Source of the DNA: Candidatus Parcubacteria bacterium
GTDB lineage: Bacteria > Patescibacteriota > Patescibacteriia > UBA1558 > GWA2-36-10
Direction of reading: 5' to 3'
Length of the DNA stretch: 64,000 nucleotides
NCBI GenBank assembly: GCA_018669975.1
Contig: JABHSK010000007.1
Coordinates: 128,390 to 192,389 of the forward strand
Below, piece after piece: positions 48,933 to 53,670 of this stretch. Made by a program: the position numbers and the translations under genes. How positions within the stretch are numbered: position 1 is the first letter of the stretch; every line of letters begins with the position of its first letter. Under the pieces are notes generated by a model. It worked only from the letters and a program-made list of their open reading frames with translations, made no database searches and was not told the origin of the DNA.

Positions 48933-50678
48933 TTACTCTAAAATAGCCTTGATGCGGCGTATTCCGGCAGAGCTTGATTGTTCTTTTTTTATTTTAAAAT
49001 GACCTAATTCGGCGGTGCTTTTTACGTGTGGACCACCACAAATTTCTTGGGAAAATTTTCCAACTTTATATACCTTGACCATTTCGCCATATTTTTTATC
49101 AAATAGGCCGATAGCGCCCTGCTCTTTAGCTTGGGCAACTGACATTTCTTCACATAGCACTGGTAAATCAAGTTCGATTTGTTGGTTAACTATCTCCTCT
49201 ACTTTAGTTTTTTCTTCGTCAGTCATCTTTTCTGGATGGGTAAAGTCAAAGCGCAGCCGTTGCTCGTTTATGTTGCTACCTTTTTGTTGGACATGATCAC
49301 CGAGGACATCACGCAAAGCTTGATGTAGGAGATGGGTAGCCGTATGAAACTTCTTTGCCATCTCACCATCGTCAGCTAGGCCGCCCTTAAACTTTCCAGC
49401 TGAGGCGGTGCGGGATAATTCCTGGTGTTTATTAAAAGCTTCTTCATATTTTTTTTTGTCCAATTTGATTCCTTTTTCTTCAGCCATTTCCAAAGTCATT
49501 TCTATAGGGAATCCGTAAGTAGTAAATAATATAAAAGCTGCTTCTTCGTTTAGCGCGTCTTGAGAAATAAATTTTTCAAATTCTTTCAAGCCTTTGCTGA
49601 GTGTTTTTGAAAACTTACTTTCTTCTTGATTTAGTTGTTCTAAAATGAATTCTTCGTTATCAAATAGTTCTTTATAGTCAGTTTGATAATTTTTGATAAC
49701 CACTTTAGCTAATTTGGTAGTAAATTTATTTTCTATACCTAATTGTTTAGCAAAACGGATAGCTCGACGAATCAAACGGCGCAGAACATAGCCCTGATCT
49801 TTATTGCCAGGGGCAATATTACAGGGATCACCGAGTATAAAAACAGCACTACGGATGTGATCAGCTACAATTCGGAATGATTTTTTATCATCAGCGTATT
49901 TTTTTTCAGATAAGTCCTCTATTTTCTGAATAATTGGCAAGAACAAATCAGTCATGTAGTTATCATCCATACTATTGAGTACAGCTAGGGTGCGTTCTAG
50001 GCCCATGCCAGTATCAACATTTTTTTGTTCTAGTGGTATAAATTTTCCGTCAGCAGTTTTATTATATTCCATTAGAACATTATTCCAGATTTCTACCCAG
50101 CCTTCATCGTCTTCATTGAATTTGGCTGGTGCCTCACCTTCGCCAGTCCAATAGAAAACCTCTGTATCAGGACCACAGGGACCGGTTTCTCCAGCTGGAC
50201 CCCACCAATTATCTTTTACTTTGCAAATTTTTTCTTGGGGAATGCCCAGATCCAACCAGAATTCTTCTGATTCTTGGTCATACTCGGGCACGTCATCGTT
50301 GCCAGCAAAGATGGAGATGCCTAGTTTATTTTTATTTAATTTAAGGATGCCTACCAAAAATTCCAAAGAAAATTTAATGGTATCTTCTTTGAAGTAGTCA
50401 CCTAAAGACCAATTTCCCAGCATTTCAAAAAAGGTATGATGAGTGGTATCACCAATTTCATCGATATCATCAGTACGCATGCATTTTTGAAAATTGGCTA
50501 GACGCTTACCTTCTGGGTGTTTTTCGCCCATTAAATAAGGTACTAGTGGTTGCATGCCAGCAGTTATAAACAAAACACTTGGGTCATTTTCTGGTATCAA
50601 CGAGGCAGAACCAATAATAGCGTGTTTTTTAGCCTTGAAATACTGAAAAAAGTTGTTTTTTAAGTCTTTTGAGGTCAT
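48933..50678 (-). CDS. alaS: Alanyl-tRNA synthetase, compact form (581 aa; catalytic plus shortened editing region, no C-Ala domain)
   Basis: ...FTSAGM-type core (FITAGMQPLVPY), HTATHLLHQAL and CGGPHV editing-site motifs. Ends about 290 aa short of canonical AlaRS. Confidence 0.8.
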   Translation of the reverse strand: MTSKDLKNNFFQYFKAKKHAIIGSASLIPENDPSVLFITAGMQPLVPYLMGEKHPEGKRLANFQKCMRTDDIDEIGDTTHHTFFEMLGNWSLGDYFKEDTIKFSLEFLVGILKLNKNKLGISIFAGNDDVPEYDQESEEFWLDLGIPQEKICKVKDNWWGPAGETGPCGPDTEVFYWTGEGEAPAKFNEDDEGWVEIWNNVLMEYNKTADGKFIPLEQKNVDTGMGLERTLAVLNSMDDNYMTDLFLPIIQKIEDLSEKKYADDKKSFRIVADHIRSAVFILGDPCNIAPGNKDQGYVLRRLIRRAIRFAKQLGIENKFTTKLAKVVIKNYQTDYKELFDNEEFILEQLNQEESKFSKTLSKGLKEFEKFISQDALNEEAAFILFTTYGFPIEMTLEMAEEKGIKLDKKKYEEAFNKHQELSRTASAGKFKGGLADDGEMAKKFHTATHLLHQALRDVLGDHVQQKGSNINEQRLRFDFTHPEKMTDEEKTKVEEIVNQQIELDLPVLCEEMSVAQAKEQGAIGLFDKKYGEMVKVYKVGKFSQEICGGPHVKSTAELGHFKIKKEQSSSAGIRRIKAILE

Positions 50679-51655: not shown

Positions 51656-51700
51656 GTAATGTAAAATATTGAACTTTCCATTTAACAAAGGAGGCTAGAA

Positions 51701-52321
51701 ATGCAAGAAACACCCAAAGTTTCTGGTGCAGCTAGATTTGCTGCTCGCTTTAAGGAGTATTTACCCGAAGATAAGCGTTGGTTCCTCAAAAAGGCCTACC
51801 AGTTGTCCAAAGATGCTCATCGTCCCGTCACTCGCAAAGACGGATTAACCCGTTATTTTGAGCACTGTCGCGGTGCTTGTGAGATTGCTATTGGTGAGCT
51901 TGGCATCAAGGATAATTGGCGGCTTTTGGTCGCTATTCTGATGCACGATGGTCCTGAGGACACATGGTTGATTGATTTTCGTTTGATCGAGCGTGTCTTT
52001 GATAAGACTGTTCGTCTGTGGGTCGAATATGTGACCAAAACCGAAGTCAATAAAGACACCTATGTCCGAGACATACTCAACTGTGGTATTCCCGAAGTAT
52101 TGATCATTAAGCTTTGTGATCGTTTGCATAATCTGCGTACTCTGGGCACCACCCCTGAGAAATTCCAGGTCCGTCAGGCTCTAGAAACTCGTGATGAGTA
52201 TTTGGTAATTGCTGAAAAGCTTATCGAAATATTACCAGCTGACCTCAGATGGCGTGGTGTATATTTGCGCGACAACATCGAGGCTGTTTGTAAGTCTTAC
52301 GAAACAGAGTTTGGTATCTAG
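51701..52321 (+). CDS. Small alarmone hydrolase: stand-alone RelA/SpoT-type HD domain, (p)ppGpp/(p)ppApp pyrophosphohydrolase-like
   Basis: RYFEHCRGACEIA, ILMHDGPEDT (HD), IKLCDRLHNLRTL match the SpoT/Mesh1 hydrolase motifs. 206 aa, no synthetase domain. Confidence 0.8.
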   Translation: MQETPKVSGAARFAARFKEYLPEDKRWFLKKAYQLSKDAHRPVTRKDGLTRYFEHCRGACEIAIGELGIKDNWRLLVAILMHDGPEDTWLIDFRLIERVFDKTVRLWVEYVTKTEVNKDTYVRDILNCGIPEVLIIKLCDRLHNLRTLGTTPEKFQVRQALETRDEYLVIAEKLIEILPADLRWRGVYLRDNIEAVCKSYETEFGI

Positions 52322-52328
52322 TCTATCG

Positions 52329-52358
52329 CCTACCCATATTTTATGGGTAGGTTTTTTA
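52329..52358 (+). terminator. Terminator after the SAH gene
   Basis: cctaccca-tattttta-tgggtagg followed by tttttt. Confidence 0.7.
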
Positions 52359-52447
52359 TATTGACAGCTTTTTTATTTATACATAAGATAAATAGGTATT
52401 GATGTTCGTACCATATAGGCTGTAGTCAAAAACCCAAGGAGGGAATT

Positions 52448-52729
52448 ATGTTAGTATTAGCAGAGAAGGAACTATCTTTTTGGGAAGGAGTGAACACATT
52501 CATTGCCAGGCTGAAATTGGCTGGAAAATCAGATGGGTATGTAATGAGGCAGTTAATGCTTCAAGCTACGGGAAAAACTCAAGGATTGTGCCAAGAGGCG
52601 CAAGAATTGCCGTCATTCGGAGAAAATAAACAAACCTGGTCAGATTTACATCGAGTTGCTAATCATCACAAGCAGGAGTTCCGATGGACAGACGGAGTTT
52701 TTTTGACCCTGGTCAACGCTATTTCTTGA
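52448..52729 (+). CDS. Hypothetical 93-aa protein, cassette gene
   Basis: Promoter TTGACA-N17-TAAGAT at 52361..52389, AAGGAGG SD, terminator ggcgc...gcgcc plus T-run. Confidence 0.45.
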   Translation: MLVLAEKELSFWEGVNTFIARLKLAGKSDGYVMRQLMLQATGKTQGLCQEAQELPSFGENKQTWSDLHRVANHHKQEFRWTDGVFLTLVNAIS

Positions 52730-52796
52730 CAGCCTATAAGGGCGCTTTGTATAAAGAGGCGCCTTTTTTATTTGACTAAATTTAAGAGATATAGTA

Positions 52797-53065
52797 ATTT
52801 ACCTTCAGATTGAACATTTCAACTTGGTGCTCGAAAGAACGGCTGTCTAAGCGTGTGAAAGACCACGTGTAGGGATGTAAAGGTTCGAAGCCTAACAGCT
52901 GGGTGGCGATTGACGTCTTTATCTGTAGGATAGGTGGGAGACATCGAAGCGCTGACGCGAGTCAGAGTGGAGTCATCCTTGAAATACCACTGTTTTAGAC
53001 CTCTCTTTCAAAGCCTTTTCGAGCGCCATCTTTTACGGGTCCTGTCATTTGACAGGACTTTTTAT
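52797..53065 (+). ncRNA. 23S rRNA-like fragment (L1-stalk H76-H78 region homolog) as a stand-alone about 270-nt transcription unit
   Basis: UGUAGGAUAGGUGGGAG...(about 45 nt)...CCUUGAAAUACCAC with the same spacing as E. coli 23S around positions 2110-2180; upstream GGCUGUCU...GUGAAAGACC. Own promoter TTGACT-N17-TAATTT at 52762..52790 and terminator gtcctgtca-tt-tgacaggac plus a T-run. Confidence 0.5.
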
Positions 53066-53078
53066 TTTGATTTAGTAA

Positions 53079-53107
53079 TTGACAAATTATAGAAAAAATG
53101 TTATTTT
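53079..53107 (+). promoter_or_regulatory. Promoter TTGACA-N17-TATTTT for 53158
   Basis: taattgacaaattatagaaaaaatgttatttt. Confidence 0.4.
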
Positions 53108-53157
53108 AGCTAGATTTCGAACTTTGTAAACAATTACTCAAACAAGGAGAAAAAGTA

Positions 53158-53415
53158 ATGAGCCAAGATAGGACTGCTGGAGATTTGATTTTTGAAACCA
53201 TAACAGCTATGGGACAAGAAGAACAGGAACATTGTATTCATTGCAATGAAAAATGGTATTCAATTCACTATCGTGATGGTGTCTGTCATAGTTGTCAGCA
53301 AAAAAATCTTCCTGGTAGGACTGAATTAGCTCGTCGTAGTCGTCACATACGAATCATGTATGGTCTGGGCATTGCTGCCCTGTTGTTTTTGATTGGTAGA
53401 GCAATTTTTGGATAG
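53158..53415 (+). CDS. Zinc-ribbon protein with a C-terminal TM helix (85 aa)
   Basis: CIHC-x13-CHSC plus hydrophobic tail GLGIAALLFLIG. AAGGAG SD. Confidence 0.5.
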   Translation: MSQDRTAGDLIFETITAMGQEEQEHCIHCNEKWYSIHYRDGVCHSCQQKNLPGRTELARRSRHIRIMYGLGIAALLFLIGRAIFG

Positions 53416-53478
53416 TAAAAACCATTAATGTTAAGAGTTTAGAGCTCGAGTAGTTCTTTTCTCTGGAAAGGCAAGTTC

Positions 53479-53670
53479 ATGGCTAAGCTTAAAGTTAAAA
53501 TTTTTAGCGGCAGACGTTCTTCTGTTGAAGGTAAAATCAACGCTTATTTAGCTGGTGGTACAGTCGATAAAATTATCGACACCAAATTGACACCACTCAA
53601 TCCAGGGGCAGAGAGTGATATCAATAATCCTAGTGTTATAGCTATGCTGACCTTCACAGTTAAAGATTAG
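53479..53670 (+). CDS. Hypothetical 63-aa protein
   Basis: Weak SD (ggaaagg). Perfect terminator cagccattc-tcatg-aatggctg plus ttttttt at 53679..53710. Confidence 0.4.
   Translation: MAKLKVKIFSGRRSSVEGKINAYLAGGTVDKIIDTKLTPLNPGAESDINNPSVIAMLTFTVKD

What the first reader, a model, noticed from the sequence alone, without database searches (positions are those of the whole stretch)
52762..53065. Stand-alone 23S rRNA L1-stalk-like fragment with its own promoter and terminator
The sequence UGUAGGAUAGGUGGGAG ... CCUUGAAAUACCAC reproduces, with the same roughly 66-nt spacing, the E. coli 23S H76-H78 (L1-binding) region. Upstream GGCUGUCU...GUGAAAGACC matches flanking 23S segments with an internal deletion. 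It is only about 270 nt, sits between protein genes, and is bracketed by a TTGACT-N17-TAATTT promoter and a perfect 9-bp terminator. It could be an L1-binding decoy, a regulatory rRNA mimic, an rRNA pseudogene remnant, or a split rRNA piece.
Basis: partly seen in the sequence, partly recalled or inferred. Interest (0 to 1): 0.7.

Follow-up and report, generated by a model that had tools for sequence, protein, structure and literature searches.

The report
Stand-alone L1-stalk plus T-arm small RNA
Between protein genes of an uncultured Parcubacteria (CPR) bacterium lies the gene for a roughly 200-260-nt small RNA that carries a faithful, selected copy of the ribosome's tRNA-holding L1 stalk next to a tRNA-like T-arm; related RNAs occur in other CPR lineages and match no curated RNA family.

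Summary
Window 52915-53000 matches the bacterial 23S model at H76-H78 (54.9 bits, E 1.5e-13). It is the only rRNA-like stretch in 64 kb, and a terminator closes the unit. The claimed similarity to flanking 23S segments is not supported.

It is not a pseudogene. The same unit occurs in two sister species, and 13 further distinct sequences come from Saccharibacteria, Parcubacteria, Sungiibacteriota and unclassified CPR contigs. None of them lies inside a 23S gene.

All share one architecture:
- a closing helix P1;
- an 'AA' junction;
- helix P2 enclosing a variable insert and a tRNA-type T-arm (UUCRA loop in 16 of 16);
- a long arm that copies H76-H78;
- a terminator.

The helices covary (covariation score 0.486 against 0.212 in shuffles, 0 of 500 as high) while both L1 T-loops stay invariant.

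Best reading: a trans-acting structured sRNA in which an exapted rRNA domain serves as a tRNA-elbow receptor outside the ribosome. It most likely clasps its own T-arm and may also bind uL1. That mechanism is inferred.

I could not determine whether the host's own 23S keeps its L1 stalk or whether the host encodes uL1.

No Rfam family and no paper found describes this RNA. The distribution is patchy.

The parts
52772..52800 (+). Putative promoter: TTGACT (52772-52777), 17-nt spacer, TAATTT (52795-52800)
   Evidence: Sequence read. TTGAC and TAGTAATTT are invariant in sister species L008 and L014 while the spacer varies. It is below the threshold of the consensus scan. No transcription data are available.
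52810..52822 (+). Small 5' leader hairpin UUGAA-CAU-UUCAA, upstream of the conserved CUUGG 5' end
   Evidence: MFE fold. CUUGG or CUGG precedes P1 in L022, L023 and L027 as well.
52826..52837 (+). P1 5' strand (GGUGCUCGAAAG), followed by the junction AA at 52838-52839
   Evidence: Pairs with 53016-53027. U-G becomes U-A in L008. Other family members have unrelated but complementary P1 sequences.
52840..52846 (+). P2 5' strand (CGGCUGU)
   Evidence: Pairs with 52895-52901. P2 starts at nt 12-15 of the RNA in 13 of 15 members. Compensatory variants include CAACG/CGUUG, CUGGU/ACCAG and CGACAU/GUGUCG.
52852..52867 (+). Lineage-specific insert hairpin (CGUG-UGAAAGAC-CACG).
   Evidence: Folds. It is deleted in L014. 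Inserts of 15-74 nt occupy this position in other members.
52879..52895 (+). tRNA-like T-arm: loop UUCGAAG at 52884-52890. In this clade the stem is reduced to 3 canonical pairs; most other members have 5.
   Evidence: The loop is UUCRA in 16 of 16 sequences. The stem covaries (GC, AU, CG). ARAGORN finds no tRNA.
52895..52901 (+). P2 3' strand (ACAGCUG), directly following the T stem as the acceptor strand does in tRNA
   Evidence: the gap between the T stem and the P2 3' strand is 0-5 nt in all 15 assigned members.
52915..53000 (+). L1-stalk domain: H76 52915-52923 / 52992-53000; T-loop 1 region 52924-52932; H77 52933-52937 / 52987-52991; H78 52940-52974; T-loop 2 region 52975-52986
   Evidence: Rfam LSU model positions 2128-2213, 54.9 bits. 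H77, the H78 base and distal H78 covary. GAA, AG.C and UGAAAUACCAC are conserved although they were not part of the search pattern.
53016..53027 (+). P1 3' strand (UUUUCGAGCGCC)
53037..53065 (+). Intrinsic terminator: 10-bp stem, 4-nt loop, T-run
   Evidence: It is conserved with substitutions in L008 and L014. Terminator-like hairpins with T-runs can be read after P1 in most other members, but they were not scanned.

Best explanation
The locus encodes an independently transcribed, trans-acting structured small RNA. The core is 202 nt (52826-53027) and the transcript is about 260 nt including leader and terminator. It belongs to an unannotated family found in CPR/Patescibacteria.

Shown: the RNA is closed by a terminal helix P1. 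From a junction it sends out two arms.
- Arm 1 is a tRNA-like minihelix. P2 stacks under a T-arm with a canonical UUCRA T-loop.
- Arm 2 is a copy of 23S rRNA helices 76-78. It keeps both interdigitating T-loops, which hold the E-site tRNA elbow in the ribosome, and it keeps the uL1-contact region.

The L1 arm is too similar to 23S rRNA to be convergent. It is an rRNA domain that was duplicated and exapted.

Inferred mechanism: the L1 arm acts outside the ribosome as an elbow receptor. Its double T-loop platform most likely stacks on the RNA's own T-loop. This clasps the two arms into a compact fold resembling the L1 stalk bound to the acceptor/T half of an E-site tRNA. Where uL1 exists it could bind this complex.

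What the clasped RNA then does (buffering uL1, sensing or competing with tRNA, or touching the ribosome) is not shown.
For: L1 identity: Rfam hit of 54.9 bits, and 61.6 bits in relative L029.

Independent unit: an upstream terminator, its own terminator, and a separate promoter-like site for the next gene. Neighbouring small genes come and go around it in sister species.

Selection:
- 97% identity against about 80% for the flanking genes.
- On a MAFFT alignment of 16 distinct sequences, 82.5% of cells are paired against 68.7% in shuffles. The covariation score is 0.486 against 0.212 (0 of 500 shuffles as high) and at most 0.21 when partners are slid.
- RNAalifold independently recovers the T-arm, H77 and H78.

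Family: 7 genome and 10 metagenome stretches, all CPR-labelled except one false positive and one MAG labelled Pacearchaeota. None is inside a 23S gene. There is one copy per locus at 98-130 bits.

Common architecture of P1, AA, P2, T-arm and L1 arm.

Known biology: the L1 stalk, RNase P and T-box all use interdigitated T-loops to stack on the tRNA elbow (PMC4810234).
Against: - The search pattern required both a T-arm and the 5' L1 T-loop, so their co-occurrence across the family is partly built in.
- A related Saccharibacteria locus (L043/L044) has a derivative with no T-arm and a broken H77.
- In the window's own clade the T stem has only 3 canonical pairs.
- A D-loop-like GG partner upstream of the T-arm is common but not universal.
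- No structural, binding or expression data exist.
- The RNA is absent from the syntenic site in other Saccharibacteria, so it is dispensable.
- Cis docking rests on geometry recalled from ribosome structures, not on a computation.
Confidence: 0.55

Rival explanations
1. uL1 sponge or regulator. The RNA exists to bind free ribosomal protein uL1, acting as a trans-acting version of the 23S-mimicking operator through which uL1 represses its own operon. The T-arm only strengthens uL1 binding, since uL1 also touches the E-tRNA T stem in the ribosome.
Against: The known operators sit in the leader of the rplK/rplA genes and, as I recall, lack the T-loops. Here there is no uL1 or uL11 gene in any held DNA, and both T-loops are invariant. 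The host is Shine-Dalgarno-poor: 6 of 40 genes have an SD motif, and none of the ribosomal protein genes do. [quoted passage not shown] The first two bases of GGAG vary in several members.
Confidence: 0.2
2. Trans tRNA binder or sensor. The L1 arm captures the elbow of cellular tRNAs, acting as a sponge, chaperone or sensor. The cis T-arm is a competing placeholder that tRNA displaces.
For: The double T-loop platform is the most conserved part. Every other natural RNA with this motif binds tRNA. In the window's clade the P2 5' strand can pair alternatively with the 3' tail: GGCU/AGCC, AGCU/AGCU in L008, and ACAAC/GUUGU in L014. This hints at two conformers.
Against: There is no specifier or anticodon-reading element and no 3'-end-sensing element. 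The alternative pairing is seen only in one clade of three species. No regulated downstream gene is conserved.
Confidence: 0.15
3. Split rRNA. The host's 23S has lost H76-78, and this RNA supplies the L1 stalk to the ribosome in trans.
For: Some CPR ribosomes have an incomplete L1 stalk (H78 lost, uL1 lost or altered). The host 23S could not be examined. The window does not contain it.
Against: The RNA closes on itself through P1 rather than offering strands to pair with H75. It carries an unrelated T-arm and variable inserts. It occurs in Saccharibacteria, which are not among the lineages reported to lack H78. uL1-lacking CPR are reported to keep the uL1 site on 23S. It is absent or degenerate in close relatives, which is odd for a ribosomal part.
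Confidence: 0.06
4. A non-functional relic: a fragment of a 23S gene (perhaps fused to a tRNA fragment) left by recombination, or an assembly artefact.
For: It is short and rRNA-like. A decayed-looking derivative exists in L043/L044.
Against: The same context appears in independent ENA, Logan, JGI and NCBI assemblies. Compensatory changes preserve every helix across lineages. The element is more conserved than the neighbouring coding genes. The promoter-like site and terminator are kept in the sister species.
Confidence: 0.02
5. A cis-regulatory leader of the downstream 85-aa and 63-aa genes.
For: It lies upstream of small genes on the same strand.
Against: A strong terminator and a separate, conserved TTGACA-17-TATTTT site lie between it and the next gene. 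The 85-aa gene is absent in L008. Downstream genes differ in every other lineage.
Confidence: 0.02

Closest known systems
L1 stalk of bacterial 23S rRNA (helices 76-78)
   Same: Sequence and secondary structure match (Rfam 54.9 bits). Both interdigitating T-loops, H77 and the base of H78 are conserved, and the helices covary in the same way as in rRNA.
   Different: It is not part of a 23S gene: 86 of 2925 model positions match. It is closed by its own helix, joined to a T-arm and variable inserts, and has its own terminator and a promoter-like site. Its occurrence is patchy.
Other RNAs that dock the tRNA elbow with interdigitated T-loops: T-box Stem I distal platform and RNase P S-domain (PMC4810234). 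Also the T-large motif of Weinberg 2017, recalled from memory and not verified here.
   Same: A double T-loop module presented at the end of a helix. It is plausibly used to stack on a T-loop/elbow.
   Different: Those modules are regarded as convergent (PMC4810234), whereas this one is an rRNA copy by sequence. No T-box or RNase P model, nor any other Rfam model, matches. The presumed ligand, a T-arm, is built into the same molecule.
uL1 autoregulatory operator (the 23S-mimicking site in the leader of the L11/L1 operon mRNA; established knowledge)
   Same: An rRNA mimic of the H77-H78 region outside the ribosome.
   Different: The operator is a minimal site within an mRNA leader next to rplK/rplA. 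This is a complete L1 stalk with T-loops in a stand-alone terminated RNA, with no r-protein gene nearby.
tRNA-like domains of non-tRNA RNAs (tmRNA tRNA-like domain; bacterial Y RNA YrlA, bioRxiv 10.1101/312249)
   Same: A T-arm with a canonical T-loop stacked on an acceptor-like helix, embedded in a larger sRNA closed by a terminal stem.
   Different: There is no free CCA acceptor end and no D-arm. ARAGORN finds nothing in the window and no Rfam tRNA, tmRNA or Y RNA model matches the element. No Ro or SmpB context was seen. The element carries an rRNA-derived arm, which neither of those has.

Membership tests
Bacterial 23S rRNA gene or gene fragment | Contiguous match to the LSU model beyond one domain | tested here: not met
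   Only model positions 2128-2213 of 2925 match. There is no other LSU hit in the 64-kb window or at E<=10 in 52700-53120. The same is true in relatives.
Bacterial 23S rRNA gene or gene fragment | H76-H78 sequence and fold | tested here: met
   54.9 bits, above the gathering score. H77 and H78 covary.
rRNA pseudogene | No selection on structure; decay at the neutral rate | tested here: not met
   97% identity against 80% for flanking genes. Compensatory changes: 0 of 500 shuffles reach the observed covariation score.
uL1 operator of the rplK-rplA leader | Located in the 5' UTR of an rplK/rplA operon | tested here: not met
   tblastn with E. coli L1 and L11 finds nothing in the window, in the about 10-kb extension past one window end (the contigs found at the other end add only a few hundred bases), or in any family locus. 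The element has its own terminator.
uL1 operator of the rplK-rplA leader | Binds uL1 | not testable with these tools
   The region corresponding to the uL1 site is conserved, but there is no binding assay. The presence of uL1 in the host is unknown.
Interdigitated double-T-loop elbow receptors (T-box Stem I, RNase P S-domain) | Two head-to-tail T-loops that interdigitate | tested here: met
   Met by homology. Both L1 T-loop regions (GUAGGAUA and UUGAAAUA) are conserved across the family. The second was not part of the search pattern. The 3D fold was not computed.
Interdigitated double-T-loop elbow receptors (T-box Stem I, RNase P S-domain) | Matches a T-box or RNase P covariance model | tested here: not met
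   No such hit at E<=10 in the element or E<=1 in five relatives.
Interdigitated double-T-loop elbow receptors (T-box Stem I, RNase P S-domain) | Binds a tRNA elbow | not testable with these tools
   Inferred only.
tRNA and tRNA-like domains (tRNA, tmRNA, YrlA) | T-arm with the U54-U55-C56-R57-A58 loop | tested here: met
   UUCRA in 16 of 16 sequences. R57 was not enforced in the metagenome scan and is R in all 6 new sequences.
tRNA and tRNA-like domains (tRNA, tmRNA, YrlA) | Cloverleaf or acceptor end with CCA; detection by tRNA/tmRNA finders | tested here: not met
   ARAGORN finds no gene in the window. No Rfam tRNA, tmRNA or Y RNA hit overlaps the element. The ends are sealed by P1.

The most novel reading that the evidence does not exclude
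The RNA is a detachable ribosome-associated module: an extra, separately encoded L1 stalk with a built-in tRNA-like arm that docks on CPR ribosomes. In this Shine-Dalgarno-poor Parcubacteria lineage those ribosomes may lack uL1. The module would take part in E-site or tRNA-release function, or in regulating it. In effect this would be a fourth, optional rRNA-like component.
Probability: 0.06. Interest if true: 0.95.

Novelty: new variant of a known kind. Interest (0 to 1): 0.72.

Why it matters
Interdigitated T-loops that grip the tRNA elbow are known from three RNAs: 23S rRNA, RNase P and T-box leaders. The review that summarises them predicted more examples would be found.

This case would differ in origin. 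The module is not convergent. It is a ribosomal domain copied out of the rRNA, kept under selection in a free-standing small RNA, and wired to a tRNA-like arm.

If the two arms dock, this is a natural minimal model of the L1-stalk / E-site-tRNA contact in about 200 nt. That size suits structural and single-molecule work.

It also adds an unannotated RNA gene to CPR bacteria. Their ribosomes are already unusual around the L1 stalk (uL1 lost or altered, H78 lost). The find gives a concrete handle on whether those losses are linked to extraribosomal L1-like RNAs.

Tried and rejected
- Known housekeeping RNAs (RNase P, tmRNA, 6S, SRP, Y RNA, T-box): no Rfam hit at E<=10 in the element or E<=1 in five longer relatives.
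- Phage or plasmid origin: the phage and plasmid collections return only 23S genes. The viral contig scan gives 0 hits. PADLOC finds nothing and PHROGs finds only a generic HD hydrolase for the neighbours.
- Conserved gene neighbourhood across the family: none.
- Host 23S, uL1 or uL11: tblastn and 23S signature strings find nothing in the window, in the loci fetched at the two window ends (only one extends about 10 kb past the window; the other adds a few hundred bases), or in any locus.
- Literature searches for a described stand-alone L1-stalk RNA found nothing relevant. A search for the 'T-large' motif returned only haematology papers. The Weinberg 2017 main text does not mention it and no supplement is held, so that comparison rests on memory.
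- H76 is poorly aligned by MAFFT (58% paired) because of indels. I did not force it.

Full report
**1. The observation**

Reading 52300-53500 and scanning the whole window against Rfam gives a single hit. Window 52915-53000 (+) matches LSU_rRNA_bacteria model positions 2128-2213 at 54.9 bits (gathering score 50), E 1.5e-13. This is exactly H76-H77-H78, the L1 stalk.

A permissive rescan of 52700-53120 adds nothing credible and no second LSU fragment. blastn against the phage and plasmid collections returns only real 23S genes. They are 79-84% identical, and only over query bases 170-251.

The claimed resemblance of GGCUGUCU...GUGAAAGACC to flanking 23S segments is not supported.

The element lies between a 93-aa ORF with its own terminator (52738-52766) and an 85-aa ORF. 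A 10-bp terminator follows it at 53037-53060. The proposed TTGACT-17-TAATTT promoter is below the scan's threshold, but it is conserved in relatives.

**2. The host**

Exact look-ups of neighbouring proteins place the window on an 844,504-nt contig of a 'Candidatus Parcubacteria bacterium' (locus tag HOB10_04405). It is a CPR/Patescibacteria organism recovered in several independent assemblies.

**3. It is a gene, not a relic**

Two sister species carry the same unit. Their HD-domain and 93-aa proteins are 81-84% identical to those of the window.
- **L008.** A minus-strand gene has been inserted between the 93-aa gene and the element, and the 85-aa gene is missing. The element, its promoter-like site and its terminator are nevertheless intact.
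- **L014.** The element has a 25-nt deletion and many substitutions.

Identity figures:

| Comparison | Element | Flanking genes |
|---|---|---|
| Window vs L008 | 97.0% | about 80% |
| Window vs L014 | 62.7% | 82.7% (93-aa gene) |

In L014 every helix is rebuilt by compensatory changes:
- H76: GUCU/AGAC becomes GCUA/UAGC.
- H78: CUGAC/GUCAG becomes GUAGC/GCUAC.
- The T stem: A-U becomes G-C.

**4. A family**

The sister species showed a second conserved feature: a GGUUCGAAnCC hairpin about 30 nt upstream of the L1 arm. I scanned with GGTTCRANNCC-N15-45-GTAGGATANGTGGGAG.
- The species-representative genomes gave 7 stretches: three Saccharibacteria MAGs, Parcubacteria GW2011_GWA1_40_21, a Patescibacteria MAG, a Sungiibacteriota MAG, and one MAG labelled Pacearchaeota.
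- A slightly looser pattern gave 10 metagenome stretches. Three duplicate known ones. One (L036) is a false positive: a real tRNA-Pro followed by a chance 16-mer.
- Viral contigs gave none.

None of these lies in a 23S gene. Rfam sees only the short L1 piece or nothing there.

A covariance model built from the 16 distinct sequences finds exactly one copy per locus at 98-130 bits, and no second copy in the window.

**5. Structure**

A MAFFT alignment made without reference to any structure (A2) was scored against the T-arm plus the Rfam L1 structure.

| Measure | Observed | Control |
|---|---|---|
| Cells paired | 82.5% | 68.7% in shuffles |
| Cells changed on both sides | 92 | 38 in shuffles |
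| Covariation score | 0.486 | 0.212 in shuffles (0 of 500 as high) |
| Covariation score, partners slid by 1-3 columns | n/a | at most 0.21 |

Individual helices:
- The variable pair of H77 runs through G-C, G-U, A-U and U-A.
- The middle pair of the H78 base is G-C in 9 sequences and A-U in 7.
- Distal H78 and the T stem covary throughout.
- RNAalifold independently predicts the T-arm, H77 and H78.
- H76 is only 58% paired in this alignment because of indels.

Some positions were never part of the search pattern and are conserved anyway: the GAA of the H78 internal loop (16 of 16), AG.C, and UGAAAUACCAC.

Full-length analysis gives one consensus architecture, in order:
- P1, formed by the two ends. 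It is 8-14 bp, with unrelated sequences that are always complementary.
- 'AA'.
- The P2 5' strand, which starts at nt 12-15 in 13 of 15 members.
- An insert of 15-74 nt.
- The T-arm.
- 0-5 nt.
- The P2 3' strand.
- A long L1 arm.
- Optional hairpins.
- The P1 3' strand.
- A terminator-like hairpin with a T-run, which can be read after P1 in most members but was scanned only in the window.

P2 variants are compensatory: CGGCUGU/ACAGCUG, CAACG/CGUUG, CACU/AGUG, CUGGU/ACCAG, CGACAU/GUGUCG and CAGCUA/UGGCUG.

The T stem is followed directly by the P2 3' strand. This is the arrangement of the T stem and acceptor strand in tRNA. The T-loop is UUCRA in all 16 sequences.

In the window the parts are:

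| Part | Coordinates |
|---|---|
| P1 | 52826-52837 / 53016-53027 |
| P2 | 52840-52846 / 52895-52901 |
| T-arm | 52879-52895 |
| L1 arm | 52915-53000 |

**6. How it most likely works**

*Shown.* It is a selected, independently terminated RNA, made of an rRNA-derived L1 stalk and a tRNA-like minihelix joined at a junction.

[quoted passage not shown] RNase P and T-box leaders use the same motif for the same purpose (PMC4810234).

*Inferred.*
- The L1 arm keeps this activity outside the ribosome.
- Its most available ligand is the T-loop 30-45 nt away in the same molecule. The two arms leave a common junction and are of comparable length, so their tips can meet.
- uL1, where present, could bind the same head.

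I put 0.55 on this package. The claim that it is a functional sRNA family with an exapted L1 domain is much more certain (about 0.9) than the cis clasp (about 0.4). The downstream biological role is open.

**7. uL1 and the host 23S**

I could not reach the host's 23S or its rplA. There is no 23S signature and no L1 or L11 gene in the window, in the DNA fetched at its two ends (about 10 kb past one end, a few hundred bases past the other), or in any family locus.

Indirect evidence comes from translation signals. Only 6 of 40 called genes have a Shine-Dalgarno motif, and none of IF1, L36, S13, S11, S4, RpoA, L17, L13 or S9 do.

Tsurumaki et al. 2022 report three relevant points:
- uL1-lacking CPR keep the uL1 site on their 23S.
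- Loss of H78 is confined to lineages that do not include Saccharibacteria.

This makes a pure uL1-sponge role less likely for this host. It also makes a split-rRNA role unlikely. Both points remain inference.

**8. Distribution is patchy**

In Saccharibacteria with RecJ-HIT-PGK synteny:
- The RNA sits between HIT and PGK in L022, L027 and L045.
- L043/L044 carry a reduced derivative. It keeps P1, both T-loop strings, H78 and a terminator, but has no T-arm and a broken H77.
- It is absent from L046 (70-nt gap) and L047 (4-nt gap).

The RNA is therefore accessory, and T-arm-less relatives exist. Because my pattern required a T-arm, the family's true breadth and the constancy of the T-arm are unknown.

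**9. Comparison and novelty**

By sequence the L1 arm is 23S rRNA, but the locus fails the test for an rRNA gene or fragment. It also fails the tests for a uL1 operator, a tRNA, tmRNA or Y RNA, and a T-box or RNase P RNA.

It plausibly works like the double-T-loop elbow receptors. Unlike them it derives from rRNA and carries its presumed ligand in cis.

No Rfam 15 family and no paper in the searchable library describes it.

I rate it a new variant of a known kind: a new RNA family built on a known recognition module. Interest is 0.72.

Noticed in passing
window 51680-53160, against the rest of the window: The genome is almost free of Shine-Dalgarno motifs (6 of 40 genes, none of nine translation-related genes). 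Yet the three genes flanking the RNA (HD hydrolase 51701, 93-aa 52448, 85-aa 53158) all have strong AAGGAG(G). GC content is also slightly higher at 52-54.5 kb (0.40-0.44, against 0.31-0.39 nearby). This may be an acquired block.
   Followed up: partly
window 52840-52846 with 52895-52901 or 53013-53016: The P2 5' strand can pair alternatively with the 3' tail, extending P1: GGCU/AGCC. L008 has the double change to AGCU/AGCU, and L014 has ACAAC/GUUGU. Two mutually exclusive pairings are kept in three species, which may mean two conformers.
   Followed up: partly
window 52826-53027 against L008 and L014: Rates are uneven. The element is 97% identical to L008 but only 63% to L014, although flanking genes are 80-83% identical in both comparisons. 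Possible causes are allele replacement, recombination or a burst of change in one lineage.
   Followed up: no
L043:2083-2233 (-), and L044: A derivative at the syntenic HIT-PGK site in a Saccharibacteria relative. P1 (GUGCUUUUAG/CUAAAAGCAC), both T-loop strings, H78 and the terminator are kept. There is no T-arm, and the H77 5' strand reads CCAC instead of GUGG, so H77 cannot form.
   Followed up: partly
L031:2953-3118: This family member has an internal tandem duplication, GGAGTCGATGGAGTCG, at the 3' side of H78.
   Followed up: no
L028 (JACOYM010000092.1): One family member sits on a contig binned as a Pacearchaeota archaeon (DPANN). This is either mis-binning of a CPR contig or a cross-domain occurrence.
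   Followed up: no
L036:8335-8492: A genuine tRNA-Pro gene is followed about 40 nt later by the exact 16-mer GTAGGATAGGTGGGAG. There is no 3' T-loop partner. The covariance model gives only 25.9 bits. I treated it as chance, but it remains odd.
   Followed up: partly
window 48933-50678 (-): A short alanine-tRNA ligase (581 aa, NCBIfam PRK01584) lies about 2 kb upstream. Other family loci have no aaRS nearby, so I treated this as coincidence.
   Followed up: partly
window 52729-53158 against L008:1493-2350 and L014:791-1241: Small genes turn over around the RNA. A 133-aa minus-strand ORF is inserted upstream in L008. The 85-aa gene is absent in L008. A 116-aa gene is added downstream in L014.
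   Followed up: no
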